Shown here in pieces: positions 3,935-24,496 of a DNA stretch of 64,000 bases. Under the pieces are notes generated by a model that was not told the DNA's origin, made no database searches, and was given only the letters and a program-made list of their open reading frames with translations. Within the stretch, counting starts at the first letter, position 1; each line of letters opens with the position of its first letter. The DNA comes from an uncultured Candidatus Saccharibacteria bacterium (GTDB lineage: Bacteria; Patescibacteriota; Saccharimonadia; CAILAD01; BJGX01): positions 6,224 to 70,223 of the forward strand of contig CAZKFZ010000005.1 of NCBI GenBank assembly GCA_964552475.1, written 5' to 3'. A program made the translations under genes and the position numbers.

Positions 3935-3978
3935 TGTACTAAAAAAGCATTTTATCTATTAATAGTATAGCCGAATTT

Positions 3979-4815: not shown

Positions 4816-4818
4816 TAG

Positions 4819-5895: not shown

Positions 5896-5898
5896 AGG

Positions 5899-7404
5899 TT
5901 AATTTACTCCATTATCCTCGAGAATTCGCTCAACTACAAGTTTTGCAGATAATGTTACCATGGGAATACCGCCACCTGGATAAGTGCTGGCACCTACAAA
6001 GTATAGACCTTTTACGCTACGTTCAATATTGTGAGGCCTGAAATAACCAGACTGGAATAAGTGATGAGTTAGACCAAAAGCTGAGCCGGCAGTTAGGTTA
6101 AATTTAGTTTCAAAATCTTGGGGCGAAAATATCTTCTCTGTTTCAATATTTTTTTCTATGTCTTGGCCAAACTCACTATTTAGTCGCTTTATGACTTGGG
6201 TACGAATTTTTCCAATACCTTTGTCCCAGTTGTTTTCTCCTTGCAAGTTTGGAACAGGCACAAGTATATACATAACACTTCTGTTTTTTGGAGCAAGAGC
6301 AGGGTCGGTTTTGGTAGGAATGTAGGTGTAAAACGACGGATCACTAGGTAGTTTTTTGTTTTTTAATATTTCTTCGAGGTTGTTTTTAAAATCACTACAT
6401 AAATAAACGTTATGGTGCAACATACCGTCAAGCTGGTTATTAACGCCCCAATAGAATAAGAGCGCCGAACTGGCTTGTTTGAGATCTTCAGCTTTGCGAC
6501 CCAGGCTTTTTAGTTTTATAGGTGAGGATAGTAGATTTTTGTAAGCGTACACTAGGTCGGCATTGCAAACTACCAAATCCGCCTCTATAGCTTCTCCGCC
6601 CACAACAACCCCTTTGGCAATATTGTTTGTAATAGTAATTTGTGAGATAGGTGTATTGGTATATATTTTGCCACCCATACCTATTACGAGCTTCTCAAGC
6701 GCTTGACTTAAACTATACATACCACCTTTGGGGTACCAAATGCCGAGCCCAGTCTCCATATAGCTCAACACACTATAAACCGCCGGTGCCTCATATGGGC
6801 TCACGCCAAGATACATGCTCTGAAAACTAAATAGTTGGCGTAGTCTGTCGTCATTAAAATAACGACTCACAAACTTCCAAAGACTTATGAGCCCTCGTTT
6901 TTGTAGTAATTTAAGTCCAGAGCGAAAATTAATAAAATCTGTTAAACTGTCAAAGTTTTTATCTATAAAACCGCCGCGCGACAGCCTATATATCTCGGCC
7001 ACATCGGCAAAAAAACTATAAAATTGTTCAGGGGCCTTGGGGTCAAATTTGGCAAGCTCGCCTGTAAACTTTGGTAAGTTACTACTGACTGTAATACGTG
7101 ACCCATCGGCAAAGGCTACTTGATAATTGGGCTCGAGCTGAATAAGCTCAATATAGTCATTAAAGTCTTTACCACAATATGCAAAAGTGTCATAGAGTAC
7201 ATCGGTCATCATTAGTAGTGTTGGGCCGGTATCAAAAGTGTAGCCGTCTTGTTTTATTCGGTTGGCCCGCCCACCAACTAACGGCTCTTTCTCGTAAATA
7301 GATACTTGATAACCTTCTTTGAGTAGCCTGGCTGCCGTGCACATACCGCCTATGCCAGCACCTACTATTATTGCAGTTTTATTCTTTTTCATAGTGATTA
7401 TCAT
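5899..7404 (-). CDS. crtI: Phytoene desaturase, CrtI family FAD-dependent oxidoreductase
   Basis: N-terminal Rossmann motif AIIVGAGIGGMCTAARL...EKEPLVGGRA; ~500 aa; C-terminal GGGIPMV motif typical of CrtI. Confidence 0.85.
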   Translation of the reverse strand: MIITMKKNKTAIIVGAGIGGMCTAARLLKEGYQVSIYEKEPLVGGRANRIKQDGYTFDTGPTLLMMTDVLYDTFAYCGKDFNDYIELIQLEPNYQVAFADGSRITVSSNLPKFTGELAKFDPKAPEQFYSFFADVAEIYRLSRGGFIDKNFDSLTDFINFRSGLKLLQKRGLISLWKFVSRYFNDDRLRQLFSFQSMYLGVSPYEAPAVYSVLSYMETGLGIWYPKGGMYSLSQALEKLVIGMGGKIYTNTPISQITITNNIAKGVVVGGEAIEADLVVCNADLVYAYKNLLSSPIKLKSLGRKAEDLKQASSALLFYWGVNNQLDGMLHHNVYLCSDFKNNLEEILKNKKLPSDPSFYTYIPTKTDPALAPKNRSVMYILVPVPNLQGENNWDKGIGKIRTQVIKRLNSEFGQDIEKNIETEKIFSPQDFETKFNLTAGSAFGLTHHLFQSGYFRPHNIERSVKGLYFVGASTYPGGGIPMVTLSAKLVVERILEDNGVN

Positions 7405-7497
7405 ACCATATCAGCTCTATACTTATGGTAGACCTGTGTCTGGGTTGGGTGTACAATATTCACGTAAATTATTCGCACCCTTTGATTGGAGAGATTA

Positions 7498-8022
7498 ATG
7501 GAAACTTCAGTATCCGCTAGTGAGCTGATAGAAGAAGTGGAAGCACTGGTAATGAGTCATTGTAAAGCAGGTCAGACGAGAACTAAGCAGGGTCGAAAAG
7601 ATACCGTTGCCATTGCTAAGTTAATGTTAGAACAGACTGCCAAACCAGCTCGTCTGAGCAGGCAAGTACTATTCGGGCGATTAGATGATGTGCAAACTTT
7701 TTTGGGTTATTTGGTTTACTGGGCACCAGGGCTTGTTATATTCGAGCCGGCGCCTGAGTATATCGACTACTTTGGCATCGTCCGAGCTGAAAAAGTTGCA
7801 GGCAACACAATTGATGAAATACATATCGATAGCCTCTTTGATGAACCCGATCGAAGTCATAGCCACAAAATACTGATCAAATTCAGATATGATGGGTATG
7901 GTACTTATGCAGATATCTTCCCCACCATCGGAGGCGTCAATATGGGCGGCCATCGTATGTTTCCGCAGCACGCCTATACCATGCTTAACTGGCTAACAAT
8001 CATGCTTGGCCTCAATCTATAA
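7498..8022 (+). CDS. Hypothetical protein (~175 aa), first gene of the plus-strand carotenoid operon; locally higher GC (~47%) than its neighbours
   Basis: ORF with GGAGAG RBS 6 nt upstream of ATG 7498 (the ORF track starts at an upstream TTG at 7486). I recognise no motif and it has no Nudix box. Confidence 0.5.
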   Translation: METSVSASELIEEVEALVMSHCKAGQTRTKQGRKDTVAIAKLMLEQTAKPARLSRQVLFGRLDDVQTFLGYLVYWAPGLVIFEPAPEYIDYFGIVRAEKVAGNTIDEIHIDSLFDEPDRSHSHKILIKFRYDGYGTYADIFPTIGGVNMGGHRMFPQHAYTMLNWLTIMLGLNL

Positions 8023-8074
8023 CATATGCCCTCTCATATCATGAGAGGGTTTTTATTTGGAGTATAATAAAGAG

Positions 8075-8500
8075 ATGATTATGCGACTTATGTATACCCA
8101 CTACTTCTATGTTATTATTTTGATACTCAGTATTGGAGGTTTGCTTCTAGCCGACCGACGACTAAGACTGGCTTTTTGGCACAACAAAATTGCAAGTACA
8201 AAAGCAGTTGGCTATACCATGCTACTACTACTAATATTTGATGTTGCCGGGGTAATAAATAAAATATTCTCAACTAATCAAGATTATGTAGTGAGAATAA
8301 ATATTATTTCACCCAATATACCTATTGAAGAAATAATATTTTTGTTTATGCTATGCTATGTGACGCTGATTTTGTATCAATTAGTTGGAAGGCTAGAAGT
8401 ATTGAAACAAGTTGGGGCTAATAAGGGGCGAAAAAATGACAAGCTAGATCAGCCCCAAGCTACACTTAATGTGAGATCCAGGAAAAAAAATCATGACTAG
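8075..8500 (+). CDS. Lycopene cyclase domain protein, subunit 1 of a heterodimeric carotenoid cyclase (CrtYe/CrtYc-like)
   Basis: Small hydrophobic protein with the conserved hPhEE motif (NIPIEEIIFLF). The ORF track starts at 8057; ATG at 8075 is the more likely start. Adjacent to a second cyclase-domain gene and a UbiA elongase. Confidence 0.65.
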   Translation: MIMRLMYTHYFYVIILILSIGGLLLADRRLRLAFWHNKIASTKAVGYTMLLLLIFDVAGVINKIFSTNQDYVVRINIISPNIPIEEIIFLFMLCYVTLILYQLVGRLEVLKQVGANKGRKNDKLDQPQATLNVRSRKKNHD

Positions 8501-8786
8501 CTACTTAGTACTGGTAACTAGCTTGGTAGTAGTATCAGTCTTAATACTGGTGCGTTTGCGCATTACCCCACCAAAACCCAAAGTTTTGATGGTAGTAGGG
8601 CTAATTCTACTCATTGCTATGTTGGTATTTGACAACTACCTCACTACTCTGCCTATTGTGATGTATAATAATAGTTCTATATTAGGTTATAAAGTTGGCA
8701 ATATACCTATAGAAGATTTTGGCTACCTAGTTGCTGTAATACTACTGGTGCCCGCTTTGTTTGAATATTTTAAGAGCAATAAATAA
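8493..8786 (+). CDS. Lycopene cyclase domain protein, subunit 2 (CrtYf/CrtYd-like)
   Basis: 97 aa with 3 TM segments and motif NIPIEDFGYLV (the PxE(E/D) motif of lycopene cyclase domain proteins). Overlaps the upstream gene by 8 nt, which suggests translational coupling. Confidence 0.65.
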   Translation: MTSYLVLVTSLVVVSVLILVRLRITPPKPKVLMVVGLILLIAMLVFDNYLTTLPIVMYNNSSILGYKVGNIPIEDFGYLVAVILLVPALFEYFKSNK

Positions 8787-8787
8787 T

Positions 8788-10797
8788 ATGCCCAAAACAG
8801 ATAACAAACTCACTATCAAAGAAGTTTTGGCGACCAGTCGCCCAGTAAGTTGGATAAACACTGCTTTTCCTTTTTTGGTAGGATATTTGCTTGCTGCTCA
8901 AAGACTAAGTTTGCCTGGCTTAATAGGGTTTGGATATTTTCTGTTTTCTTACAATTTAATGCTTTATGGCGTAAACGATATATATGATTACGAATCAGAT
9001 ATTAAAAACCCTCGAAAGAATTCCATAGAAGGAGGTTTGCTTCTTAAGCAAAAGCACCGGAACCTATGGATAGCAATTGCAGTTATTAATTTACCTTTTG
9101 TGGTGTATTTTTTAGCTACCGGAACTACCACATCAAAGATACTATTTGTACTTATTATATTCTTTGCTTTCAGTTATAGCGCCAAGCCACTTCGTTTTAA
9201 AGAAGTTCCTTTTTTAGATTCAATAAACTCAGCATTACACTTTGTTTTGCCCTTTGTTTTCGGTCTTGCATATATGCAAAGTAATAACTACTATTGGCCA
9301 GCTGTAATTGCATTTTTAGCTTGGGGCATGGCGAGTCAAGCTTTTGGTGCAATACAAGATATTAAGCCAGATAGAGCCGCTAATATTAAATCAATTGCTA
9401 CAGTTATGGGTGCTAAGCGTACCAACATATTCGTCATTACACTCTACTTATTGTGTTGTGTACTGATTGCAGTGTTATACTTTCCGCTTGGCCTACTAGC
9501 TAGCGTGTTTTTGGGAATGTACGTCTTAAACGCTAGTTTTTTTATTAAATACAAATCCGATGCAAGATCATCACAATTTCATAGAGGTTGGCAAAATTTT
9601 ATGTGGCTTAATATGATAGTAGGGTTTTTTATTACCCAAATATTATTGTTTGCATTCGATCCGTTCGGTGTTAGGGAATATTTCATTGCATTAACTGGTT
9701 TTTTTCTATTAGTATTTTTCTTGATCCAACTTGGTTTAATAATATATAACCTAAGGGCTTTTGCTAGACCAAAGACAAAACGACTAAATGATTGGCCAAA
9801 AATTAGTATAATTATGCATGCTTATAATCAGGGTGATAATATATCTTCTACGCTCCTTTCACTTTTAGGTCAGCAATATCCTCAGTTCGAAATACTTTTT
9901 ACCGATCTAGGTTCGCAAGACAACACTCTAAGTATAGCCAAAGGATTTCAAGACCCAAGACTAAAGATAATAGAAACGAAACCACTTAAACCAAATTGGA
10001 CTCTTAACTCTTGGGTGTCTCAACAGTTGCTAGAAAAGTCGACAGGTGAAATAGTTTTGTTACTAAGTGCTGATACTATTCTATTGCCTAACGCTCTATC
10101 GGTAATGGCTAGTCTTATAGAGCAAGAAAAGTTAAGTTTAGTTTCGATATTACCATCAGACCAAAATAAAAGTTTTGCTCAACAAATTATACTGAGTCAA
10201 AACCATTACTTTATGCTTGGTCTATACCCTTCCGCTTATTTAGCAAAGGCTCACCCCAGGTCGGTTAATGCTAGTAGTAATATAACCGCCTTTGTGCGAT
10301 CGAGCGTATTAGCCCTTGGCGGTTTTGAACTTGTAAGAAAAAGTCCTTTGGAAGATTTCGACCTTGCGGCCGCCGCTAAGACAAGAGGTTTGAAAACTGG
10401 GTTCTATCTAGGATCAGACATGGCAATGAGCCAAAACCATGCTAGTTTAAGACTTATTGTGGCGCAAAACTTAAGACGTTTTTACCCAGCACTACACTTT
10501 TCTATGCCCTTAACAATCGCCTTAGTTTTATTTGGGTTGTTTGTCTTGGTCTTCCCAACTCTACTAATAAGCTACTTATTGCTATTTAATATTTACATAG
10601 GCTTATGGTTCTTAGCCTTGGCAATTGGACTTAGTTATATTAACCGATTAATTATTACTATAATTTCTCGTCAGAGTATTGTGTCTACGTTACTGTATCC
10701 TATTGGTTGCCTATGTTCATTTTATTTACTTGTTTACTCAATGATAAACTATGAAGTATTGAAGCCTAGGTGGCAAAATCGTAAAGAAGTGTTTTAG
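8788..10797 (+). CDS. Fusion protein. The N-terminal ~290 aa is a UbiA-family prenyltransferase (lycopene elongase CrtEb-like) and the C-terminal ~330 aa is a GT2 glycosyltransferase (CrtX/CrtQ-like) with a C-terminal TM anchor
   Basis: UbiA motifs NDIYDYESD (NDxxDxxxD) and QDIKPD (DxxxD) are present. The GT2 signature is ISIIMHAYNQGDNISSTLLSLLGQQYPQFEILFTDLGSQDNT, followed by hydrophobic C-terminal helices. The ORF track starts at 8761; ATG 8788 is the likely start. Confidence 0.7.
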   Translation: MPKTDNKLTIKEVLATSRPVSWINTAFPFLVGYLLAAQRLSLPGLIGFGYFLFSYNLMLYGVNDIYDYESDIKNPRKNSIEGGLLLKQKHRNLWIAIAVINLPFVVYFLATGTTTSKILFVLIIFFAFSYSAKPLRFKEVPFLDSINSALHFVLPFVFGLAYMQSNNYYWPAVIAFLAWGMASQAFGAIQDIKPDRAANIKSIATVMGAKRTNIFVITLYLLCCVLIAVLYFPLGLLASVFLGMYVLNASFFIKYKSDARSSQFHRGWQNFMWLNMIVGFFITQILLFAFDPFGVREYFIALTGFFLLVFFLIQLGLIIYNLRAFARPKTKRLNDWPKISIIMHAYNQGDNISSTLLSLLGQQYPQFEILFTDLGSQDNTLSIAKGFQDPRLKIIETKPLKPNWTLNSWVSQQLLEKSTGEIVLLLSADTILLPNALSVMASLIEQEKLSLVSILPSDQNKSFAQQIILSQNHYFMLGLYPSAYLAKAHPRSVNASSNITAFVRSSVLALGGFELVRKSPLEDFDLAAAAKTRGLKTGFYLGSDMAMSQNHASLRLIVAQNLRRFYPALHFSMPLTIALVLFGLFVLVFPTLLISYLLLFNIYIGLWFLALAIGLSYINRLIITIISRQSIVSTLLYPIGCLCSFYLLVYSMINYEVLKPRWQNRKEVF

Positions 10798-10821
10798 ATA
10801 TAAAAAAAATTTGTAACTTAT

Positions 10822-11577
10822 TTATTTAATTGATTCCTTCAGGGTAGTTTGAGCTTTCTGTATTGCAGAATTAAACTCTTCAATCATTTTAGATATCGTA
10901 CTTTGTCGCACATGTTGTGCAGTTTTAGTTGTAGAGACAATACTAGATTCTCCAAACGTGATAGATTGAATTATGTTTCGTGCATTTTGTAGATCGCTTT
11001 TTAACTCTTTACGTACGGCCGTGCCATTATTTCCTGCGTCACAACTTGATTGAGCCTTGACTAGTGAGGTAGAAACATAATTCTTATAAGCTGAAATAGC
11101 TAAGTCTATATTACTGTTGCGCTCAGAAATTATACCTATAACATCGTCATTGTAAGTATCGACAGCCTTGTCGACAGACGAGCGACGCTCGGCGATAGCC
11201 ATCTCTACACTGGTTTTAAAAACATTAATGGCTTGTTGTTGAGTATCTGTTTGAGACTTTTCGAGTAGTTTTGTATAGTGCTCCTGCCTATTACTGTCCC
11301 ACTTAGCTTGTATACTTGATATATCTTTGTCGCGTTTTGAAAAGATCTCGTTAAGTTCTTCTTTTTTAGCAACTCTGGTGTTATTTATACTAGTTATCTT
11401 TTGATCAATCTGACTATTTAGTCTTGAAGATATAGAGCTGAGTTGATTACAGAAAATATCATCAGTACCCTGTTGTGCCAAAGTAATTTGTGGACTAAAA
11501 ATACTGACAATAAATGTTAAAAATAACATAGTGGTAGATATAATAATTATAGGATTATGTTTATAGACTTGGGTCAT
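10822..11577 (-). CDS. Secreted or membrane-anchored coiled-coil protein of unknown function (signal peptide, cleavage near TLA-QQ)
   Basis: N-terminal hydrophobic segment followed by a Gln/Ser/Lys-rich helical region. Its start overlaps the stop of the upstream anti-sigma candidate by 17 nt. Confidence 0.5.
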   Translation of the reverse strand: MTQVYKHNPIIIISTTMLFLTFIVSIFSPQITLAQQGTDDIFCNQLSSISSRLNSQIDQKITSINNTRVAKKEELNEIFSKRDKDISSIQAKWDSNRQEHYTKLLEKSQTDTQQQAINVFKTSVEMAIAERRSSVDKAVDTYNDDVIGIISERNSNIDLAISAYKNYVSTSLVKAQSSCDAGNNGTAVRKELKSDLQNARNIIQSITFGESSIVSTTKTAQHVRQSTISKMIEEFNSAIQKAQTTLKESIK

Positions 11578-12034
11578 TGCTAATATCTCCTAATTGCTTG
11601 ATTTCGTTAGACACCTCTTGCACTACATTCTCTCCCTTAGTCATGGCTTGGTCGTTAATACTACTCTCATCGGCCAAGTCAGCACTAATGGAGTTGAAAG
11701 TATTCTCGATAGTACCATCTGGAGCAGATTGGCTTAGTTTGTTGGTGTTATTGTTATTGATATTGGAGTTATTATTCTTAAAGAAAAACACACCACCAAA
11801 TATCACTACCAACATAATAGTTGCAATAGGTATATATAACCTTAGTTGATTAAGTATTGGGTTATTTTTTGTTTCTGGTATTACACTTCTTGGGCTATTA
11901 TTTTCTTTATCTATTCTCTGAAGAGTATTATTAAGAAGGTGTCTCTTGTTAAATGAAAAGCCTTTCAACTCTTTTAGTTTCTTGGCATACTCTTCAGGAC
12001 TATTATTGCTCTTATTGTTATACATTTTATTCAT
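11561..12034 (-). CDS. Candidate anti-sigma factor. Single-pass membrane protein with a cytoplasmic N-terminus, one TM and an Asn-rich extracytoplasmic domain
   Basis: Immediately downstream of the ECF sigma gene and overlapping it. Topology is typical of ECF anti-sigma factors. The ORF track starts at 12100; MNKMYNN at 12034 is the likely start. Confidence 0.45.
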   Translation of the reverse strand: MNKMYNNKSNNSPEEYAKKLKELKGFSFNKRHLLNNTLQRIDKENNSPRSVIPETKNNPILNQLRLYIPIATIMLVVIFGGVFFFKNNNSNINNNNTNKLSQSAPDGTIENTFNSISADLADESSINDQAMTKGENVVQEVSNEIKQLGDISNDPSL

Positions 12035-12608
12035 TTTCTTGTTTAGAAACTTCTGATAGTGCCATTGTGGCTCTAGATAGTAACTTGCGGGTAGCAACAT
12101 CGCTTTTTCCGATTATCATAGCTATTTCTGCGCTAGATAAATTCTCCATATAACGAAGAATTAGGGCTTCTTGGTAGTTATTGGGTAATTTTTTTAAATT
12201 ACGATAAAGTTGTTTTATTTCTTCGGAATTTATAACGTCATCCTGAGGGTTTTGTGACTTATCTTCAAGAAGCAAAAGCACTTCTTCAGAGTTTTGTATT
12301 TTTGTTGCTTTTCTGCCTTTACTGCGATAAAAATCGACAATTACGCTTCGGGCAATACTAAATATATAGGCAGATGGCTGGTAGCCTTTATCTTGCCAAT
12401 TATGCAAATTTCTATAAAACTTAATAAAAACCTGCTGGGTAAGGTCGTCGGTCTCTTCGCTGTCACCCACCCTAATAAGAATATATCTATAAATAGGTGA
12501 AAAATACTCTTCATACAATTGTTCAAAAGCCGCCTCGTCACCACTTCTTGCTTTGGCAACTAGTGGTACAAAGTTATCGGGTTGTTCTTGGGGGTTTTGT
12601 GTAGTCAT
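12027..12608 (-). CDS. ECF-type (sigma-70 family group 4) RNA polymerase sigma factor
   Basis: A region 2 motif and a region 4 HTH-type segment (sequences in the ECF-module finding); 193 aa. Confidence 0.8.
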   Translation of the reverse strand: MTTQNPQEQPDNFVPLVAKARSGDEAAFEQLYEEYFSPIYRYILIRVGDSEETDDLTQQVFIKFYRNLHNWQDKGYQPSAYIFSIARSVIVDFYRSKGRKATKIQNSEEVLLLLEDKSQNPQDDVINSEEIKQLYRNLKKLPNNYQEALILRYMENLSSAEIAMIIGKSDVATRKLLSRATMALSEVSKQENE

Positions 12609-12701
12609 TATTTACTGCATTAGTATAGCATAATTAAAAAAATACATACTGAAACAACGTAAATGAACAATAAAAAGATTATTGGGTTCTACTATAAGAG
12701 T

Positions 12702-12956
12702 CTATAAACCCAAAATCTGAGCTTTTTTAGCTGAAAACTCTTCGTCAGTCAAGACACCATTGTCGTGTAGTTCACCAAGCTTTTCTAGTTGTTGAATTTG
12801 ATCATCACCACCTTGGACATTAGATTGTTGAGGAACCTGCTCGGCTTCTTCATTGGCCCATCTATTAGCTTGTCTACGACTAACGTTATTTGATACTGCA
12901 GTAGCTGTTCCGGCTATAACGGCAGTTCTAGCCATCCCTCTAAGTAATCCTGGCAT
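12702..12956 (-). CDS. SHOCT-domain protein
   Basis: C-terminal LEKLGELHDNGVLTDEEFSAKKAQILG matches the SHOCT short C-terminal domain pattern. Confidence 0.5.
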   Translation of the reverse strand: MPGLLRGMARTAVIAGTATAVSNNVSRRQANRWANEEAEQVPQQSNVQGGDDQIQQLEKLGELHDNGVLTDEEFSAKKAQILGL

Positions 12957-13381
12957 TATTTATCTCCTTTCTTATCTATCTCTTCGGCTGCGTCTGGATG
13001 TATGCGCCCTTCGACAATTAACTCGCCATTGGCATTAATAATAGCTTGTTTTAGACCTTTAGCCCAAAGTTGTTCAATTACAAGTAGGCCAACGGAACTA
13101 TTGTTATCTATAATGTCGCCTATTTCATCTATATCATCGGTAGTAATTAAGCCCGATTCAACCCTATTGGCCTTGGCAAAATTTACTATGCTAGTATCTT
13201 GCATATCGCTTAGCTCTATAGATGCTACCTCGCCGTTCTTATCTTTTGTCACCAAAGCAAGATCCAAAACTGCTATAGTTCCTTTTTTGACGACCTTAGA
13301 AAGTTCTTCTAATACTTCTCCGCTAAAGTTGTTATCTCTAAATTTAACAACAATATAATCAATAGGTCCGTGCATATTCAC
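12956..13381 (-). CDS. Hypothetical acidic protein (141 aa) whose stop overlaps the SHOCT gene start
   Basis: ORF only; stop/start overlap at 12956 with the SHOCT gene. I recognise no motif. Confidence 0.45.
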   Translation of the reverse strand: MNMHGPIDYIVVKFRDNNFSGEVLEELSKVVKKGTIAVLDLALVTKDKNGEVASIELSDMQDTSIVNFAKANRVESGLITTDDIDEIGDIIDNNSSVGLLVIEQLWAKGLKQAIINANGELIVEGRIHPDAAEEIDKKGDK

Positions 13382-13420
13382 TCCTTTTTCTTAGTTGTAT
13401 ATGTATTATATCATGCCAGT

Positions 13421-15034
13421 CTAACCAAGAGCTTTTGGTCCAGGCTTGTTGGCTGGTAACTTGATTGTGGCAAGCAAACCAAGACCACTTAGAACTGCTA
13501 GTAATATAAAGGTAGAGCTTAGGGCTTTTTGTCGTGCTTGAGCGTTAATATCTACCACTGCCTGAGACACCTCGGCCGGCTGATTGGCAGTAGCAGCTTC
13601 TATTTGAGTATTGCTAACTATCTGGGCTTGTGTAGAGTAAGCAGACTTAAGCTGATCTTTTTGAGCATTATTGAGCGTAGTGTTTTGGTTGATCGCGTTA
13701 GTGCTAGCAATTAGTAAAGTGCCTATCAACAAAACTCCACTAATAGCCGTACCAAAACTCATCCCCAGATTTTGGAAGGTAGCAAACAGGCCCGATGCCT
13801 CGGCCGAATCTTTAGTGGTTACTGCACTTTGCACTAGGTTTTGTAGTTGAGAAAATATTATACCAAGCCCAGAACCAATAAAAGCTAGTGATGGTACCAA
13901 TGCCCAGCCACTATTTGCAGAGTCAGCTCTTATGCCAAGCAGAATTGCGCCCAGCAGTACCAATACAAAACCTACTTGTACTATTTTTCTAGGAGCAAAC
14001 TTTGTAGACATTACCGACCCCCTACTAGCCAAAACTAGAATCATTAGAGATAGTGGCAACATGGTGACACCTGTTTTCATCGCATCGTAGCCTAATTCAA
14101 TCTGTAAAAATAGTGCTAAAGCATACATCGTTCCACCTAGCAAAAACTGTGTAGCAAATATAGAGCCGTTACCAGCATTAACTACACTATTTTTAAATAG
14201 CTCTAGGTGAATAAGCGGGAATAGTTTTTTGTTTTCACGATGTCTTTCCCATAGCACAAACAATCCAAGCGTGATTAATCCTATTAATATTAACCAAATA
14301 GTGGGAGAAATACCGCCGGCATTAATAATTACTTGCCCATTTATTGAAAAGTCTTGTCGGGCACGTAATAGCCCATAAGTGCTTGCATATAATATACCTT
14401 GCACAACCAAAGCCATGCCAGCCGCAATCAGCCCTACACCCAACCAATCTAGTTTTGGTTTAATCTTGTCGAGCTTAGAATCTACAATTATACCTTTTCT
14501 TAGTAAAATATACACCACAACTACCACTTCGGCGGCAAAAGCATAGCGCCAGCTAGCATAAGTGGTAAGAAAACCACCAATGAGTGGACCAATTCCAGCA
14601 CCAACTGCACCCATTGCGGCAACAGCACCATAGGCCTTCACTCTCCGGGTACCAGCTCCAAAGTTACTAGCAATAAGTGATATCATTGCAGGAATTATCA
14701 GAGCAGCACCCAAGCCCTCTAATAGCGACCAGCCAATCTTAAGAATGGTTATATTTGGCGCTAGAGCAGTTATTGCAGATCCGGTTCCATATATACAAAG
14801 ACCTATCACAAAAGCTTTTTTACGACCAATTATGTCACCTACTTTGGCTCCTGCAATCATAAAGGCGGCCATTACTAAGGTATAAAATGTAATTGCACTT
14901 TGCACACCGCTTATTGTGGTGTTTAAGTCTACCACTAACGTAGAAATAGATACATTCATTACGGTCGTATCTAGGGTTAGTATTAGCTGAGCCATTGCCA
15001 GCAATATGAGTATTTGTTTCTCTGTCTTTGTCAT
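13421..15034 (-). CDS. MFS transporter, DHA2 (14-TM drug:H+ antiporter, EmrB/QacA-like) family
   Basis: 537 aa with ~14 hydrophobic helices. MFS signatures GDIIGRKKAF and LEGLGAALIIPA. Confidence 0.8.
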   Translation of the reverse strand: MTKTEKQILILLAMAQLILTLDTTVMNVSISTLVVDLNTTISGVQSAITFYTLVMAAFMIAGAKVGDIIGRKKAFVIGLCIYGTGSAITALAPNITILKIGWSLLEGLGAALIIPAMISLIASNFGAGTRRVKAYGAVAAMGAVGAGIGPLIGGFLTTYASWRYAFAAEVVVVVYILLRKGIIVDSKLDKIKPKLDWLGVGLIAAGMALVVQGILYASTYGLLRARQDFSINGQVIINAGGISPTIWLILIGLITLGLFVLWERHRENKKLFPLIHLELFKNSVVNAGNGSIFATQFLLGGTMYALALFLQIELGYDAMKTGVTMLPLSLMILVLASRGSVMSTKFAPRKIVQVGFVLVLLGAILLGIRADSANSGWALVPSLAFIGSGLGIIFSQLQNLVQSAVTTKDSAEASGLFATFQNLGMSFGTAISGVLLIGTLLIASTNAINQNTTLNNAQKDQLKSAYSTQAQIVSNTQIEAATANQPAEVSQAVVDINAQARQKALSSTFILLAVLSGLGLLATIKLPANKPGPKALG

Positions 15035-15834: not shown

Positions 15835-16533
15835 TTACTCACTATCTGGTGTTGATGCTACGCCGGCATCTTGTGCGTTAGGGCTCATAAATACCGAGTC
15901 GACTTGACCATTCTCATTAATAACAATTGCCACAATATAACCATCAGTTGACTGCCCCACAATAGCGTTGTCACCAAAGTACTGAGCATTATTCCCCTGT
16001 TGAAGTTGTTGAAGTTGATTAGCAGTTAGGTTCCAGTTCCATCCGCCAGTTGAGCTATTTAAATATCCAAGCGAGTCGAGCACTTGTTGCCTAGTTTGTT
16101 GCGATGTACTCGAGCCCGCTACTACCACTGTAGTGTTTTCACCAAGAAGCGATGTAATATCTTGATACTTCTTGCCATCAATAAGAGCTTGAATCTTTTT
16201 GCGCGTGTCTTCAGACACGGCACTGTCGGTAGAGCCAGGGTTCTTATTGTTTTTACCTATAAGATTGTTGTTCTTTTCTTCTGCTTGATTGAGCTTAGTT
16301 TGTAAATCTTTATTTTTACTATCGGCATCACTCAAACGTTTGTTGTAAATTGATGTCACAATAAAATAGGTTGCTATATTTGTTACCAAAACCACTATTA
16401 CTACTAAAATAACCCAATAAAGAGGTGGTATGTTAGGCAATACAGATGTGGTGTTTTTTCCACCTTTGCCTTTTAGAGAGTTATTTTTAGATTTGTCGTC
16501 TGTTCTGTTTGAGAGTGTGTAACGTTCTGGCAT
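15835..16533 (-). CDS. Single-pass membrane protein with extracellular coiled-coil and Gln-rich domain, unknown function
   Basis: ORF with one TM (WVILVVIVVLVTNIATYFIV) and a Lys/Asn-rich helical region. Confidence 0.5.
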   Translation of the reverse strand: MPERYTLSNRTDDKSKNNSLKGKGGKNTTSVLPNIPPLYWVILVVIVVLVTNIATYFIVTSIYNKRLSDADSKNKDLQTKLNQAEEKNNNLIGKNNKNPGSTDSAVSEDTRKKIQALIDGKKYQDITSLLGENTTVVVAGSSTSQQTRQQVLDSLGYLNSSTGGWNWNLTANQLQQLQQGNNAQYFGDNAIVGQSTDGYIVAIVINENGQVDSVFMSPNAQDAGVASTPDSE

Positions 16534-16622: not shown

Positions 16623-17081
16623 CTAACGAGTTACTGAAATTGTGGCGCCTTGTTCTGCATCTGGAGCAGAGACCACTAGTCTATTGTTAGCATCTTTTAC
16701 AATAGTATATTTGGTGTCGTTAGCTGTTGCAGTGCTAGGATCTTTTGGTATAGATACTAAGTATTTACCATTGGTAGTAAGTACAGCTAGGTCTGTAAGG
16801 CCAGTGCAAGTTCCGCCAGTTACACAGATATCGTTAGCTGGGGCTGTACCGGCTACTAGAATGCTTGCAGGTAAGTTACCATTGTTATCAATAGAGTACT
16901 GATAAGCAGCGTTAATAATAGTATTTACGTCGGCTCTACGCTGGGCATTACGTGTGTCAGCCAACTGCTTGGCAGGGTTAACCGCAAGTATAACAATACC
17001 AGCAAGAATTGCGATAATTGCAACTACTAGCAAAACTTCAATTAAGGTAAATCCTTTTTTACTTTTTAATAATTTGAACAT
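16623..17081 (-). CDS. pilA: Type IV major pilin (PilA-like)
   Basis: Class III signal MFKLLKSKKG/FTLIEVLLVVAIIAILAGIV with Gly-1, Phe+1 and Glu+5. 152 aa with a C-terminal Cys pair (CVTGGTCTG). Has its own terminator. Confidence 0.85.
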   Translation of the reverse strand: MFKLLKSKKGFTLIEVLLVVAIIAILAGIVILAVNPAKQLADTRNAQRRADVNTIINAAYQYSIDNNGNLPASILVAGTAPANDICVTGGTCTGLTDLAVLTTNGKYLVSIPKDPSTATANDTKYTIVKDANNRLVVSAPDAEQGATISVTR

Positions 17082-17174
17082 CTTTTTTTAACCTCTTTCT
17101 TTAGTAATTTTTACTTACTATCATATTAAAGTACTTATGCTTATTTTGCAATAGGCTTTTTTTATTTTTTTCAA

Positions 17175-17600
17175 TTAAGGAATTTCTTGCCAACTGTAGA
17201 TATTTAGAGTAGGTCCTACCCTGTTTAATGTGATATTTACACGCTTTTTAATATTTTTACCACTACCGTCTGCAACACCCACAGCATCGATCACATAATT
17301 GGGGCTAGTTCCGGTAATAGTATAATTGCATGTAGTCTTGTTTGTAGCGTCTATTGTATAGTTAGCACTAGATGGCGTAGTAAGCACAATATTTGCCTGT
17401 ATTGCAGCAAGGGCCAGTTCGGCGCAACCATCGGCGCCAGCCTTTGCTTGAGCAGATTGCTGAATGCTTAGGCTAGTTTTACTGGATGTGACGCCGGAAA
17501 AAAGTAGCAGCAAGCCCACAAGTGAGCCTATTGCTGCTATGGCAATTACAGTTATTAAAGTAATATAGCCCGATTGTTGATTGATATTTGGTGTATTCAT
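17175..17600 (-). CDS. Minor pilin-like protein (PilX-like; prepilin-like N-terminus lacking Glu+5)
   Basis: N-terminus QQSG/YITLITVIAIAAIGSLVG is hydrophobic and pilin-like, but has T at +5. Confidence 0.5.
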   Translation of the reverse strand: MNTPNINQQSGYITLITVIAIAAIGSLVGLLLLFSGVTSSKTSLSIQQSAQAKAGADGCAELALAAIQANIVLTTPSSANYTIDATNKTTCNYTITGTSPNYVIDAVGVADGSGKNIKKRVNITLNRVGPTLNIYSWQEIP

Positions 17601-18124
17601 CTTAATGTTGAGACTCCATAAAAGTTCTTCTGATACTGCAAAGTAGATTTATTACTAGGGTTGTAGTAAGTGAGAGTAAAGCTTATATCTATTGAGTCTC
17701 TACCACCACTAATCGCCTTGTTGGTAAAACTCAAGTTACTAACGCTTACTCTAGAGCTAGTTAAGTATTCGGGGCTTGCACTACCAACTTTCATACGCAT
17801 CTTATTTACATTTTGGTCGATTGCGGTGTCGAATATCGTTGGGTTATTTGTAGCAGTAGTTGTATTAAGTGATAAGCTAGATGACGAATTGCCTACCGAA
17901 GGATTATTTATGGTGCTAGCATTGCGAAGGCTCTGGGTGATACTCGATATTATCAACCGTCCCTGAGCATCAACCTCTTGGTTTATTTGGTTTTGAATAC
18001 GTTGATTGGTAATCGAGACCGCCACAGCAAGTATTGATCCAATAATAAGTGAAAATACCGTAATATAAAGTAGCATTTCAATTATTGTGTAGCCTTTTTG
18101 ATTGTCTTTATCAATGTGTTTCAT
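17597..18124 (-). CDS. Type IV minor pilin / pseudopilin
   Basis: Prepilin motif NQKG/YTIIEMLLYITVFSLIIG. Confidence 0.7.
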   Translation of the reverse strand: MKHIDKDNQKGYTIIEMLLYITVFSLIIGSILAVAVSITNQRIQNQINQEVDAQGRLIISSITQSLRNASTINNPSVGNSSSSLSLNTTTATNNPTIFDTAIDQNVNKMRMKVGSASPEYLTSSRVSVSNLSFTNKAISGGRDSIDISFTLTYYNPSNKSTLQYQKNFYGVSTLR

Positions 18125-18137
18125 GCTTTAATCATCC

Positions 18138-19925
18138 TTAGTTATCCCACGCAAAATCAAACCATACGGCATCGTTGGTTGGCCCACTGGACAGGTGATT
18201 AGTCCATGCCTTACCCGATGGAGTAGTAAATAGAGCGTTGGTAGTACCGTCTAAAACAACTGAGTATAGATTACGGAAAGCATCTGATACCATCACCATC
18301 GTTTCGTCAGCATTTGGTCTTCCCACTATTCGTGTTTTTCCAATATTATCACTGGCGTTTGGAAGAGCGATAGCACTATTCGCCCATGAGTTAATACTAC
18401 TATTGTATATTTTTAACTTACCGCTTCTAGTATTATCAGAGTACGCGATAACCCCATCGTTAGAATTAACGTATTTATAAGCAACATCAAAGGTTATTTG
18501 ACCTCCATAGTCGGTATTGTTGGTAATTAAGTTATTTGTAGGCGTAACAAAACCAACTCCAACAGGATTAATTTCATAGCAAAATATTGAACCAGGATTG
18601 ATATCGCTTTTAGCGCATGCAATAAGTTCATTTGCGGTGTTGGGTCTAGAAATTTGACGTATAGAAATAATTGATTGTCCAGATGGAATATTGCTACTAG
18701 TAATAACCGAGCCCCAACTACCCGACCCGCTACCATCAATAGTGAATGTTTGAGCGCGCAATGCACGATCATTGGCGGATGTGGTATATATTACAGTTCC
18801 TTGGCTGGTATTAACATTACTCCAGTCAAAATCTACAAGTAGCGAACCATTACCGGCTGAGCTATTAGTGTGTTGAGTGTATGTTGACCATACACTATTA
18901 GAATAGAAACTAGTGTTTACTTTATAATCATTTGTTAAAAAAACCGTCATCATATCATTAGATGCAGGTCTAGCTTTTATCATCATTGCGGTAATGTAAT
19001 TATTGCTAGAACCAATCTGACCCAAACCAACCTCCGGACCCCATGTAGCACCATTAAATGATCTCGATTTGGGATTATTACTCCCATCAGAATAGACAGC
19101 CACAAACGAACCGTCGGCCAAGAAATCTCCTCCGTAATTACCTGAGTTTAGTGCGCTACTAGACGTCCACTGAGCTAGTAATTGTGGAGTTGCCCAACTA
19201 GAGCCGTTCCAAGCTGTAGCATACATATACTGCTTAGTGCCATCATAGTGGCGAGAAACCATCATTTTTGCCGAACCAGTTTGAGCAGAATAGAGTTTTA
19301 GAGAACGCGGTACTCTATTATTTGTGGTAGTACTCACATCTGGTATTACAGTCTGGGCCGTCCACGACCCAGTGGTTAACAACTGCCTAAACTCCATTCT
19401 GTCAGTTGTGGTACCGCCATCGGCATAGACAAAAAGTCCACTCTTAATGGGGGCTGAGGTTGGTTGTCTCCAGTTAGCGAAATACATTACAACACTGAGT
19501 GAAGAACTGACTACCAGAGTGCGTTGCCAGCTCACTGTGACTGTAACTTTTCGTGAGCCATTTGGTCCATCACTAAAATTAACTATTCTAGTATATTTAC
19601 TATCTACTAGCTGAGGAATTGTAGTTAGCTGCCACTGGTTGTTGATAGAACTAATATAATAATTAGTACCGTTTGAATAGCTAGATAAATTGGAGTAGTT
19701 GGGATTGGCAATATTACGTACCACCTCCAGACCAGCACTAGATAGCTCAGTAGCCCTTGTACGCTCTCCGGCTTGTCTTACCCCATCTCGGCCGTATATA
19801 AAAGAACTCAACATTACCGTACCAAAGAGTGCAAATATTGCTACGGCCAATAAAATCTCTATCAAACTAAATCCCATTGGCATCGATGTAGCTGTAAGAT
19901 TTTTTGATGTCATGCTAATACTCAA
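18138..19925 (-). CDS. Giant prepilin-type protein (595 aa), candidate tip-associated minor pilin or adhesin
   Basis: N-terminal MPMG/FSLIEILLAVAIFALFG class III signal, followed by a ~560-aa Ser/Thr/Asn-rich beta-type domain. Confidence 0.7.
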   Translation of the reverse strand: MSISMTSKNLTATSMPMGFSLIEILLAVAIFALFGTVMLSSFIYGRDGVRQAGERTRATELSSAGLEVVRNIANPNYSNLSSYSNGTNYYISSINNQWQLTTIPQLVDSKYTRIVNFSDGPNGSRKVTVTVSWQRTLVVSSSLSVVMYFANWRQPTSAPIKSGLFVYADGGTTTDRMEFRQLLTTGSWTAQTVIPDVSTTTNNRVPRSLKLYSAQTGSAKMMVSRHYDGTKQYMYATAWNGSSWATPQLLAQWTSSSALNSGNYGGDFLADGSFVAVYSDGSNNPKSRSFNGATWGPEVGLGQIGSSNNYITAMMIKARPASNDMMTVFLTNDYKVNTSFYSNSVWSTYTQHTNSSAGNGSLLVDFDWSNVNTSQGTVIYTTSANDRALRAQTFTIDGSGSGSWGSVITSSNIPSGQSIISIRQISRPNTANELIACAKSDINPGSIFCYEINPVGVGFVTPTNNLITNNTDYGGQITFDVAYKYVNSNDGVIAYSDNTRSGKLKIYNSSINSWANSAIALPNASDNIGKTRIVGRPNADETMVMVSDAFRNLYSVVLDGTTNALFTTPSGKAWTNHLSSGPTNDAVWFDFAWDN

Positions 19926-20370
19926 TTACTCCTTTTGAGCTAATTGTGATGGTTTTGTTGTCACCCTTGTTTACAACGGTAACAGCACCTGGTACAGATA
20001 ACTTTCCACTAAATTTATCAAAAACAAATTCAGTTTGACCAGAAAAAGTAATAGATGAGGTAAAAGGATAAACCTCATCCTTGCTTTGATTTCTACTTGC
20101 ATAGCTATTTCCCTGGAATATTGTAATGCTGCCATTTTGCACGCGCACACCCCAGTTGCCATCATTCTCACCCGCGCGTGCTAAGCTTTGAGCACGATAC
20201 ATATCTTGAACAATAATACTACTAATTACTTCTAAATCGTTTCGCAACACATAACGCTGAAGTACTGGTGCTGTTACCATTAGAATTATAGAAATTATTC
20301 CAATAGAAAGCATTAGCTCAATTAAGGTGAAGCCGTATTTATGTCTAAGAAGGTATTTTTTAAAAACCAT
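19915..20370 (-). CDS. GspH/FimT-like pseudopilin
   Basis: Prepilin motif HKYG/FTLIELMLSIGIISIIL; 151 aa. Confidence 0.7.
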   Translation of the reverse strand: MVFKKYLLRHKYGFTLIELMLSIGIISIILMVTAPVLQRYVLRNDLEVISSIIVQDMYRAQSLARAGENDGNWGVRVQNGSITIFQGNSYASRNQSKDEVYPFTSSITFSGQTEFVFDKFSGKLSVPGAVTVVNKGDNKTITISSKGVIEY

Positions 20371-20375
20371 ATCAA

Positions 20376-24338: not shown

Positions 24339-24414
24339 GGCAGGGGTGGCAGGAGTCGAACCCGCGGCCTTTGGTTTTGGAGACCAACGCTCTAGCCAAC
24401 TGAGCTACACCCCT
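24339..24414 (-). tRNA. tRNA-Trp (anticodon CCA), CCA end encoded
   Basis: The reverse complement gives AGGGGTG TA GCTC AGTTGGCTA GAGC G TTGGT CTCCAAA ACCAA ... GCGGG TTCGACT CCTGC CACCCCT G CCA. This is a full cloverleaf with the anticodon loop CT-CCA-AA. Confidence 0.85.
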
Positions 24415-24481
24415 CTATTTATAGTGTTACTGATTTATTCTACCAGAAAAAAATAAAAAAATCTGCTTAAAACTATAGGTT

Positions 24482-24490: not shown

Positions 24491-24496
24491 TATCCT

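What the first reader, a model, noticed from the sequence alone, without database searches (positions are those of the whole stretch)
10822..13381. ECF sigma / anti-sigma / secreted coiled-coil module preceded by SHOCT-domain pair
Five co-directional genes are overlapping or tightly spaced. They are DUF (12956-13381), a SHOCT-domain protein (12702-12956), an ECF sigma (12027-12608; region 2 YEEYFSPIYRYI..QQVFIKFY, region 4 YQEALILRYMENLSSAEIAMIIGKSDVATRKLLSRA), a single-pass anti-sigma candidate whose start overlaps the sigma stop, and a signal-peptide coiled-coil protein whose start overlaps the anti-sigma stop. A minimal cell-surface signalling unit is notable in a reduced genome. The secreted protein is the likely regulon output or a co-sensor. 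A TATACT -10 lies upstream of the sigma gene near 12629-12634 on the minus strand.
Basis: partly seen in the sequence, partly recalled or inferred. Interest (0 to 1): 0.55.

Follow-up and report, generated by a model that had tools for sequence, protein, structure and literature searches.

The report
Saccharibacteria ECF sigma three-gene module
A stress-type (ECF) sigma factor gene in a Saccharibacteria genome is always followed by two unclassified envelope protein genes, a likely membrane anti-sigma and a secreted helical partner, and the sigma gene seems to carry its own target promoter inside its coding sequence; the kind of system is known, but its parts are not.

Summary
The five minus-strand ORFs exist as described, and the sigma is a true ECF (sigma2 + sigma4). 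The window comes from a Candidatus Saccharibacteria (TM7) genome. Comparison of 13 orthologous loci splits the "five-gene module" in two.

- **Conserved unit:** sigma (12027-12608), a single-pass membrane protein (11561-12034) and a secreted protein (10822-11577). All three are present with overlapping or nearly abutting starts in 13/13 loci.
- **Not part of it:** the DUF6325/SHOCT pair travels with the upstream MFS transporter. In 8 loci an ABC/FtsX pair sits there instead.
- **Membrane protein:** it matches no known anti-sigma domain, and a class I profile test was negative. Sigma-less relatives lack exactly its roughly 65-aa cytoplasmic N-terminus, which fits a sigma-binding add-on.
- **Secreted protein:** it belongs to a large family without a Pfam model (1268 representatives). 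The confident model is a long three-helix bundle with two invariant cysteines and has no significant structural match.
- **New finding:** an ECF-type promoter motif, GTCACAAA-N13-CGTTAT, lies inside the sigma gene at 12258-12232. It is frozen at synonymous sites in 11 orthologs. In the two deepest-branching orthologs the same motif lies upstream of the sigma gene instead.

This predicts sigma-driven transcription of the two downstream genes only, a negative feedback as in E. coli rseA P3. Sigma binding and the transcription start are untested.

The parts
12027..12608 (-). ECF (group 4) sigma factor gene, 193 aa
   Evidence: Sigma70_r2 covers residues 31-99 and Sigma70_r4_2 covers 133-180; TIGR02937 scores 91.6 bits against a cut-off of 42.9. 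The ortholog group has about 63 clusters at 47-100% identity, followed by a gap to 37%. The gene has no Shine-Dalgarno sequence.
12622..12630 (-). Housekeeping-type extended -10 (TGcTATACT), 13 nt upstream of the sigma ATG; predicts a very short leader
   Evidence: Read from the sequence. By my reading, 11 of 13 orthologous loci have a -10-like hexamer upstream of the sigma ATG: 6-18 nt away in 9 loci and 36-38 nt away in L089 and L093. This is inference; no mapped transcription start exists.
12232..12258 (-). Embedded ECF-type promoter motif GTCACAAA-N13-CGTTAT, inside the sigma2-sigma4 linker codons 117-126; predicted start near 12225, about 190 nt upstream of the TM gene
   Evidence: It is the only perfect match in the 64-kb window and in each locus. 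Synonymous sites are frozen in 11/11 orthologs: codon 117 has a variable amino acid but always ends in G; Ser118 is always TCA; Gln119 always CAA; codon 124 (D/G/S) always ends in C; Val125 is always GTT. Only 9 of 188 columns have an invariant third position, and 5 of them fall within codons 117-125. The same motif lies upstream of the sigma ATG in L089 and L093. There is no conserved RNA structure.
11561..12034 (-). Single-pass membrane protein, 157 aa; anti-sigma candidate with an N-terminal cytoplasmic region (about 65 aa, two predicted helices), a TM helix at 66-84, and an extracytoplasmic linker plus one long helix
   Evidence: It is conserved directly after sigma in 13/13 loci. Flanking K+R counts favour N-in: more on the N side in 9 loci, equal in 4, never fewer. 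The AF2 model is low-confidence but gives a secondary-structure layout. No Pfam or PDB hit was found. The L100 sigma-less homolog aligns only to profile positions 72-157.
10822..11577 (-). Secreted three-helix-bundle protein, 251 aa, with signal peptide, AGGAG ribosome-binding site and two invariant cysteines (C43, C179)
   Evidence: AF2 on a 150-sequence alignment gives pLDDT 89.5 and pTM 0.78, with helices 38-107, 111-180 and 185-250. The family has 1268 representatives at E<=1e-3. No Pfam family, no PDB sequence hit and no significant fold match, best E 0.07.
12702..13381 (-). DUF6325 (12956-13381) + SHOCT (12702-12956) gene pair: an adjacent, separate unit, not part of the sigma module
   Evidence: Pfam hits are. 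The pair is found after the MFS gene in the window, L001, L095 and L096. It is absent in 9 of 13 loci, and three genes separate it from sigma in L095.
13421..15034 (-). DHA2-type MFS transporter gene, upstream neighbour that travels with the DUF6325/SHOCT pair
   Evidence: MFS_1 E 1.3e-39; TIGR00711 E 1.9e-45, below its cut-off. Synteny is shown.

Best explanation
This is a three-gene ECF signalling module that is conserved across Saccharibacteria.

- **Transcription of the whole unit:** a housekeeping-type promoter (TGcTATACT) just upstream produces a nearly leaderless sigma-TM-secreted transcript. The three genes are translationally coupled through overlapping stop/start codons.
- **Anti-sigma candidate:** the 157-aa protein sits in the membrane with its N-terminus inside. 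Its short cytoplasmic helices are proposed to sequester the sigma factor.
- **Secreted partner:** the single long outside helix of the membrane protein is proposed to dock onto the secreted, disulfide-clamped three-helix-bundle protein. That protein would then act as co-sensor or protector, in the way RseB does for RseA or CnrX for CnrY.
- **Feedback:** once freed, the sigma recognises GTCACAAA-N13-CGTTAT, which is embedded in its own coding sequence. It then transcribes only the anti-sigma and the secreted partner, and this shuts the response off again.

Shown here: ECF identity, conserved trio and junctions, topology, fold model, nucleotide-level constraint on the motif, and the modular N-terminal extension. 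Inferred: sigma binding, ectodomain-partner binding, promoter activity, the signal, and release by proteolysis.

The DUF6325/SHOCT pair is an unrelated neighbour linked to the MFS gene.
For: 1. ECF identity is established by domain hits.
2. The trio is present with overlaps or gaps of a few nt (at most 26) at sigma/TM and 14-17-nt overlaps at TM/secreted in 13/13 loci, while the partners diverge fast: 35% and 30% identity where sigma keeps 64%.
3. Single TM with a positive-inside bias.
4. Two sampled sigma-less homolog pairs (L100, L101) have partners that start directly with the TM helix. The L100 partner aligns only to profile positions 72-157 (E 2e-13). The cytoplasmic N-terminus therefore co-occurs with sigma.
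5. The motif is frozen at synonymous sites and at the third position of amino-acid-variable codons. The residue before Ser118 varies among S, T, K, P, R, A, E and Q in 52 orthologs.
6. The motif has ECF-like geometry (GTCAC-N16/17-CGT), is unique in the window and loci, and sits upstream of sigma in the two deep-branching orthologs, which lack the internal copy.
7. There is no conserved RNA fold at the motif.
8. Precedents exist: the sigmaE-dependent rseA P3 lies inside rpoE, 228 nt upstream of rseA (PMC8595263); C. glutamicum has a SigH-dependent promoter that drives rshA only (PMC3489674); rsbN is a direct BldN target and RsbN is a sequence-orphan single-pass anti-sigma (PMC6101532).
Against: - No sequence or profile similarity of the TM protein to any anti-sigma domain.
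- Its AF2 model is poor (pLDDT 57), and no complex prediction was possible.
- The N-terminal cytoplasmic region is weakly conserved; no residue in it is invariant across the 13 orthologs.
- Only two sigma-less contexts could be sampled.
- A transcript from the internal promoter would reach the TM gene without an obvious Shine-Dalgarno sequence.
- In L089 and L093 the motif ends 1-3 nt before the annotated ATG, which is tight for a transcription start.
- No other regulon member carrying the motif was found in the 64 kb or in the flanks.
- The secreted protein has no anchor, so its retention at the cell is assumed.
Confidence: 0.55

Rival explanations
1. The TM and secreted proteins are simply the sigma's output: an envelope or surface protein pair that the sigma switches on through the embedded promoter. 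They would not regulate the sigma. The sigma would be controlled by its own transcription or by an unlinked factor.
For: No anti-sigma domain is detectable. The same protein pair exists without any sigma in L100 and L101, so it has a sigma-independent function. The only motif found points at these two genes. The secreted family is very large, which suits a structural or surface role.
Against: The sigma-linked versions, and only those among the ones sampled, carry a 60-98-aa cytoplasmic N-terminal extension. Strict adjacency and stop/start overlap with sigma in 13/13 loci is the typical signature of sigma/anti-sigma pairs. Output and regulator roles are not mutually exclusive, as rseABC shows.
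Confidence: 0.25
2. The conserved nucleotides inside the sigma gene are not a sigma-dependent promoter. They could instead be an operator for another DNA-binding protein, a translational signal, or a by-product of protein and codon constraints.
For: No transcription start data exist. S-Q-N and D-V are conserved amino acids, so part of the conservation is explained by the protein. No second site was found elsewhere in the window.
Against: Third positions are invariant even where the amino acid varies: codon 117 always ends in G (third-position G frequency 0.16), and codon 124 always ends in C (0.176). Ser is always TCA, whereas another invariant Ser uses three different codons. The motif reappears in non-coding DNA upstream of sigma in exactly the two orthologs that lack it internally, with unrelated spacer sequence. 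No RNA structure is predicted. The geometry matches ECF promoters.
Confidence: 0.12
3. One reading: all five genes (DUF6325, SHOCT, sigma, anti-sigma, secreted) form one functional signalling operon.
For: In the window and L001 the genes are co-directional, and in the window no terminator-like hairpin was found between SHOCT and sigma. L096 has the same adjacency.
Against: The pair is missing from 9 of 13 orthologous loci. In 8 of them an ABC/FtsX pair takes its place. It is separated from sigma by three genes in L095, and it always sits downstream of the MFS gene. Sigma has its own -10 element.
Confidence: 0.08

Closest known systems
E. coli rpoE-rseA-rseB(-rseC) with the internal sigmaE-dependent promoter rseA P3
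   Same: Same gene order: ECF sigma, single-pass N-in membrane anti-sigma, exported partner protein. A sigma-dependent promoter lies inside the sigma coding region about 200 nt upstream of the anti-sigma start (228 nt in E. coli per PMC8595263; about 190 nt predicted here). That promoter transcribes only the negative regulators.
   Different: No sequence or fold relation of the TM protein to RseA (class I domain test negative) or of the secreted protein to RseB. The host is assumed from general knowledge to have a single membrane, so there would be no outer-membrane-protein or LPS signal logic. In the main clade here the sigma itself appears to lack an autoregulated upstream promoter, whereas rpoE has one.
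Corynebacterium glutamicum sigH-rshA
   Same: The operon is transcribed from housekeeping promoters, and a separate SigH-dependent promoter drives the anti-sigma gene only. This is interpreted as a rapid shut-off mechanism (PMC3489674). The promoter logic inferred here is the same.
   Different: From general knowledge, RshA is a soluble zinc-binding redox-sensing anti-sigma. Here the candidate is a membrane protein without an HxxxCxxC motif, and there is a third, secreted component.
Streptomyces BldN-RsbN (class III anti-sigma domain)
   Same: [quoted passage not shown] It is encoded next to the sigma, evolves fast, and its gene is a direct target of the sigma (PMC6101532). The top NCBIfam hit of the sigma here is the model named 'BldN family'.
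   Different: The sigma scores 125.9 bits against a cut-off of 206.45, so it is not a member of that family. RsbN has a 117-aa cytoplasmic domain with three helices and a 272-aa ectodomain. Here the cytoplasmic part is about 65 aa with two predicted helices and the ectodomain is about 70 aa. BldN-RsbN has no secreted third component.
Cupriavidus CnrH-CnrY-CnrX (class II anti-sigma domain)
   Same: It is a three-part system. From general knowledge, it comprises an ECF sigma, a very short single-pass anti-sigma and an all-helical extracytoplasmic sensor protein. PMC8103513 confirms that CnrY belongs to class II. The short cytoplasmic segment here is class-II-like in size.
   Different: From general knowledge, the gene order differs (cnrYXH) and CnrX is membrane-anchored and senses metals. 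There is no detectable sequence or fold similarity. The CnrH match to the sigma is weak (E 8e-6).

Membership tests
ECF (group 4) sigma-70 family | Only sigma2 and sigma4 domains are present, and the ECF superfamily model scores above its cut-off | tested here: met
   Sigma70_r2 E 2e-15, Sigma70_r4_2 E 6e-10, Sigma70_ECF E 6.8e-8. TIGR02937 scores 91.6 bits against a cut-off of 42.9. The protein is 193 aa, which leaves no room for region 1.1 or 3.
TIGR02952 ('BldN family') or any other NCBIfam ECF equivalog | Score above the curated whole-protein cut-off | tested here: not met
   The best hit, TIGR02952, scores 125.9 bits against a cut-off of 206.45. Every other listed subfamily or equivalog model is also below its cut-off.
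A numbered ECF group (ECF Hub classification) | Assignment by the group-specific profile HMMs of Casas-Pastor et al. 2021 | not testable with these tools
   Those profiles are not available here. The main text of the paper does not mention Saccharibacteria or Patescibacteria.
Class I anti-sigma domain (RseA, RsiW, RskA, ZAS types) | Detectable profile similarity to the N-terminal four-helix anti-sigma domain; for the ZAS type, an HxxxCxxC motif | tested here: not met
   hhalign of the 13-sequence N-terminal profile gave E 0.78 against a ZAS profile and E 0.4 against an RskA-like profile, both built from the loci. The positive control (ZAS against RskA-like) gave E 1.7e-4 over 68 columns. No Pfam anti-sigma family matched in any of the 13 members. 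The window protein contains no cysteine at all.
Class II (CnrY, NepR) or class III (RsbN) anti-sigma domain | Structure of the cytoplasmic segment in complex with the sigma | tested here: inconclusive
   The AF2 model is low-confidence (pLDDT 57). It predicts two short cytoplasmic helices at 13-23 and 30-46. No complex prediction was possible, and no PDB sequence hit was found.
Membrane anti-sigma factor (generic, functional definition) | Encoded adjacent to and co-transcribed with its sigma; single-pass with the N-terminus in the cytoplasm | tested here: met
   Adjacent with a stop/start overlap or a gap of at most 4 nt in 13/13 loci. One TM segment; flanking K+R counts favour the N side in 9 loci, are equal in 4 and never lower.
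Membrane anti-sigma factor (generic, functional definition) | Binds and inhibits its cognate sigma | not testable with these tools
   This needs a two-hybrid, pull-down or reporter assay, or a multimer structure prediction. Indirect support: the L100 and L101 sigma-less homologs lack the cytoplasmic N-terminus.
Sigma-dependent promoter internal to the sigma gene (rseA P3 type) | ECF-type -35/-10 motif within the sigma coding sequence, under selection beyond the coding constraint | tested here: met
   GTCAC-N16-CGT in 11/11 main-clade orthologs. Third positions are invariant at amino-acid-variable codons 117 and 124. Five of the 9 invariant third positions of the gene fall within codons 117-125.
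Sigma-dependent promoter internal to the sigma gene (rseA P3 type) | A mapped, sigma-dependent transcription start | not testable with these tools
   No transcriptome data are available for this organism.
RseB, MucB or CnrX co-regulator families | Sequence or fold homology of the exported third protein | tested here: not met
   No Pfam family. The profile search against PDB sequences found nothing below E 0.04. The best Foldseek hit against the PDB has E 0.07 and is a generic BAR-like helical bundle.
Cell-surface signalling (FecI/FecR/TonB-dependent transducer) | FecR-type anti-sigma domain and a TonB-dependent outer-membrane receptor | tested here: not met
   No FecR match in the TM protein or its orthologs. 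No TonB-dependent receptor appears in any of the locus gene tables.
SHOCT domain / DUF6325 | Pfam score above the gathering cut-off | tested here: met
   SHOCT scores 44.2 bits against a cut-off of 27. DUF6325 scores 30.8 bits against a cut-off of 23.4.

The most novel reading that the evidence does not exclude
A widespread two-protein extracellular unit was recruited in Saccharibacteria as the sensing end of an ECF pathway. The unit consists of a membrane-anchored helix plus a disulfide-clamped secreted three-helix bundle. It has 1268 family representatives, no Pfam model and no structural match. Its sigma-less examples come from contigs of unidentified organisms that may be other small-genome bacteria. 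Recruitment would have happened by adding a short cytoplasmic sigma-binding extension. That extension would define a new anti-sigma class and a new type of extracytoplasmic co-sensor. The cognate promoter then moved from upstream of the sigma gene into its coding sequence, which converted a mixed positive/negative loop into pure negative feedback.
Probability: 0.35. Interest if true: 0.65.

Novelty: new variant of a known kind. Interest (0 to 1): 0.45.

Why it matters
Saccharibacteria are reduced-genome epibionts with very few regulators, and I found no paper on their ECF or anti-sigma systems. The results matter in four ways.

- A single conserved ECF module with a readable promoter motif gives a concrete handle on what these cells sense at their surface. 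Scanning a complete genome for the motif would define the regulon.
- The module points to a large, uncharacterised extracellular helical protein family.
- It provides a clean comparative example of a promoter under dual coding and regulatory constraint.
- It shows an evolutionary relocation of that promoter, from upstream of the sigma gene to inside it.

Tried and rejected
- **Word-index searches with the TM and secreted proteins** found only the protein itself and one close relative each. Both proteins evolve too fast for that method.
- **The metagenome scan with the sigma alignment** returned only distant ECFs of at most 32% identity. None has the partner genes downstream. These loci were reused only as a source of control anti-sigma domains.
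The TM protein therefore had only a 2-sequence alignment and a poor model.
- **Looking up cluster names** gave no taxonomy for the secreted family.
- **An ECF-type promoter directly upstream of the window's sigma gene** was not found; only the extended -10 is there.
- **The motif upstream of the ABC/FtsX genes or the carotenoid genes** was not found. The idea that this sigma directly drives the neighbouring carotenoid cluster has no support in the available sequence.
- **An RNA-structure explanation for the conserved nucleotides** was rejected (consensus energy -0.15 kcal/mol).
- **The generic sigma-70 and terminator scan** of the region was no better than shuffled sequence.
- **My recollection that PDB 6dxo is BldN** was not borne out. 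The RsbN-BldN complex is 6C03, so I make no claim about the identity of 6dxo.
- **The resemblance of the deep-clade N-termini ('ILQYHLDNNL') to helix 1 of class I anti-sigma domains** did not survive the profile test.
Full report
**What is there**

The window is from a Candidatus Saccharibacteria (TM7) genome. The closest public loci are two Saccharibacteria assemblies whose sigma genes are 96% and 67% identical to the window's.

- 12956-13381 matches DUF6325 and 12702-12956 matches SHOCT.
- 12027-12608 is an ECF sigma. It has Sigma70_r2 and Sigma70_r4_2, and the ECF superfamily model TIGR02937 scores above its cut-off.
- No narrower NCBIfam model reaches its cut-off. The best, TIGR02952 ('BldN family'), scores 125.9 bits against 206.45.
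- Among solved structures the best sequence match is an unnamed ECF sigma (6dxo_A, region 2 only), followed by SigW.

The TATACT box is really at 12627-12622, and a preceding TGc makes it an extended -10. The sigma gene has no Shine-Dalgarno sequence, whereas the DUF6325, SHOCT and secreted-protein genes each have AGGAG.

**What belongs together**

The sigma has a well-bounded ortholog group of about 63 clusters at 47-100% identity, followed by a drop to 37%. I retrieved 12 further loci that span this range.

In all 13 loci the sigma gene is followed by two genes:
- a 155-186-aa protein with no Pfam match, whose start overlaps the sigma stop or lies within 4 nt of it;
- a 241-270-aa protein with no Pfam match, whose start overlaps the previous stop by 14-17 nt.

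These two partners evolve much faster than the sigma. Between the window and L002 they are 35% and 30% identical where the sigma keeps 64%.

The upstream neighbours vary.
- Eight loci have an ABC ATPase plus a MacB/FtsX permease.
- The window, L001 and L096 have DUF6325 + SHOCT.
- L095 has MFS, DUF6325 and SHOCT, then three other genes before sigma.
- L093 has a PAP2/LssY_C protein.

The DUF6325/SHOCT pair therefore belongs with the MFS gene and is not part of the sigma module. Downstream, most loci have an adenylate-kinase-like gene, often followed by a histidine kinase. Nearly all end at a convergent carotenoid cluster, as the window does.

**The membrane protein (11561-12034)**

It has one hydrophobic segment (residues 66-84). 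Across the 13 orthologs, K+R counts on the N-terminal flank are higher than on the C-terminal flank in 9 loci, equal in 4 and never lower, so the N-terminus is cytoplasmic. The cytoplasmic part is 60-98 aa and the outside part 64-76 aa.

The AF2 model rests on only two sequences and is poor (pLDDT 57). It suggests two short cytoplasmic helices, the TM helix, a disordered linker and one long outside helix at 108-152.

No similarity to known anti-sigma domains was detected.
- No Pfam family matched in any of the 13 members, and no PDB sequence hit was found.
- I built class I anti-sigma profiles (ZAS and RskA-like types) from genes downstream of the distant ECF sigmas fetched.
- Profile-profile comparison with the N-terminal region gave E 0.4-0.8. 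The two control profiles recognised each other at E 1.7e-4.
- Membership in class I is therefore not met. Class II or III cannot be decided without a complex structure.

Positive evidence comes from domain architecture. Two homologs of the secreted protein that I could place in their genomic context have no sigma gene anywhere in the locus (L100, L101). Each is preceded by a 108-114-aa protein that begins directly with the TM helix. The L100 partner aligns to profile positions 72-157 only (E 2e-13). The roughly 65-aa cytoplasmic extension is thus seen only in the sigma-linked versions. That is what one expects of a sigma-binding add-on. The sample is small (two loci).

**The secreted protein (10822-11577)**

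All 13 orthologs have a signal peptide with an Ala-X-Ala-type cleavage site and exactly two cysteines in the mature part.

An exhaustive profile search found 1268 cluster representatives at E<=1e-3 and 842 at E<=1e-10, all of similar length. No Pfam model covers the family.

AF2 with 150 homologs gave a confident model (pLDDT 89.5, pTM 0.78). Two 70-residue helices (38-107 and 111-180) form a hairpin, and a third, kinked helix (185-250) packs back on them. The two invariant cysteines, C43 and C179, lie at the open end of the hairpin. From the register of the helices I infer a disulfide clamp there.

Foldseek against the PDB found nothing significant. The best hit has E 0.07 and is a generic BAR-like bundle.

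I infer that the single outside helix of the membrane protein docks onto this bundle. The conserved hydrophobic last residue of the membrane protein (F or L in all 13) would suit recognition by a PDZ-type protease once it is unshielded. That point is speculation.

**The embedded promoter**

In the two deepest-branching orthologs (L089, L093) the DNA just upstream of the sigma gene carries GTCAC(g/a)AA-N14-CGTT(gc/at), and the spacers between the two boxes are unrelated. Searching all loci for GTCAC-N15-19-CGT found one hit in each of the other 11 loci. It is always at the same place inside the sigma gene, in the linker between sigma2 and sigma4. In the window the motif is GTCACAAAaccctcaggatgaCGTTAT, at 12258-12232 on the minus strand.

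The conservation is at the nucleotide level.
- Codon 117 encodes K, T, P, R, S or E but always ends in G.
- Ser118 is always TCA, Gln119 always CAA and Val125 always GTT.
- Codon 124 encodes D, G or S but always ends in C.
- Other invariant residues in the gene vary freely at the third position.
- In eight non-redundant sequences only 9 of 188 columns have an invariant third base, and five of them lie within codons 117-125.
- G and C at third positions have background frequencies of only 0.16 and 0.176.

Among 52 ortholog proteins with the S-Q-N/S motif, the residue before the serine takes eight different identities.

The perfect motif is unique in the 64-kb window and in each locus. There is no conserved RNA structure at this site.

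The geometry GTCAC-N16/17-CGT is that of ECF promoters. From general knowledge, an example is the SigW consensus TGAAAC-N16-CGTA.

The most economical reading is that this is the sigma's own target promoter. In the main clade it lies inside the sigma gene, so it transcribes only the anti-sigma candidate and the secreted protein. The sigma itself is made from the housekeeping-type -10 just upstream.

This design is documented elsewhere.
- E. coli rseA P3 lies inside rpoE, 228 nt upstream of rseA (PMC8595263).
- C. glutamicum has a SigH-dependent promoter that drives rshA only (PMC3489674).
- Streptomyces rsbN is a direct BldN target (PMC6101532).

**What remains open**

- Sigma binding, promoter activity, the signal and the mode of release are all inferred.
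- Translation of the TM gene from the internal transcript lacks an obvious ribosome-binding site.
- In L089 and L093 the motif ends only 1-3 nt before the annotated ATG.
- No further regulon members were found. Only 64 kb of this genome and about 10 kb per related locus were available.
- The motif is absent upstream of the ABC/FtsX genes and of the carotenoid genes.

**Verdict**

The kind of system is known. Its anti-sigma candidate, its secreted partner family and the relocated, coding-embedded promoter make it a new variant. Interest is moderate.

Noticed in passing
window 3979-10797; also L091, L095, L096, L097 flanks: A carotenoid gene cluster abuts the sigma module and converges on it. 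It contains phytoene synthase, a polyprenyl synthase, a phytoene-desaturase-like oxidase, two lycopene-cyclase-type small membrane proteins and a 678-aa UbiA prenyltransferase-glycosyltransferase fusion. The linkage holds in nearly all orthologous loci, and in L095 a Caroten_synth gene sits directly upstream of sigma. No sigma motif was found at the carotenoid promoters.
   Followed up: partly
window 12609-12630; L087, L094, L098 just upstream of 5001; ABC genes in L002-L099: The sigma gene lacks a Shine-Dalgarno sequence and has a -10-like box only 6-18 nt before the ATG in most loci (6 nt in L087, L094 and L098). This suggests leaderless or near-leaderless mRNAs. The ABC ATPase genes upstream in other loci also have TATAAT-like boxes about 10-16 nt before their ATG.
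   Followed up: partly
L100 812-4903; L101 4632-5924: Sigma-less copies of the membrane-helix + secreted-bundle pair exist. In L100 the pair follows an OmpR-type response regulator, a histidine kinase and an AI-2E-family transporter. This hints that the pair can be attached to different signalling systems.
   Followed up: partly
window 11561-11575 (C-terminus of the TM protein) and all orthologs (alignment A4): The last residue of the membrane protein is F or L in all 13 orthologs, preceded by an acidic N/D-E-rich stretch. It resembles a ligand for a C-terminal protease or PDZ domain.
   Followed up: no
window 12702-15034 compared with L002 19-2841 and L087, L091, L094, L097-L099 about 3080-4976: Where most relatives have an ABC ATPase + MacB/FtsX permease directly upstream of sigma (24-48-nt gap), the window lineage has DUF6325 + SHOCT instead. 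L002 has MFS, then ABC/FtsX, then sigma, which suggests a local gene replacement.
   Followed up: partly
window 10798-10821: In the window and in L095 the adenylate-kinase-like gene that follows the module in most loci is missing. Only 24 nt, without a terminator-like hairpin, separate the secreted-protein gene from the convergent UbiA-GT2 gene.
   Followed up: no
window 16623-23316: A type IV pilus-like cluster: three proteins with the N-terminal methylation motif, a T2SSF platform protein, a T2SSE ATPase and a 595-aa protein with no Pfam match.
   Followed up: no
window 2453-3934 and 15835-16533: Two sizeable ORFs (493 aa and 232 aa) have no Pfam match. The first lies between nusG and the carotenoid genes. 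The second is a predicted membrane-anchored protein.
   Followed up: no
window 24341-26984, 27000-63949: The rest of the window holds housekeeping genes: four tRNA genes and rplA/rplK/nusG at 52-2061. From ORF sizes alone I take 27-50 kb to be the large ribosomal protein operon and the 1262-aa and 1174-aa ORFs at 53802-61117 to be the RNA polymerase beta' and beta subunit genes. These two readings were not checked.
   Followed up: no
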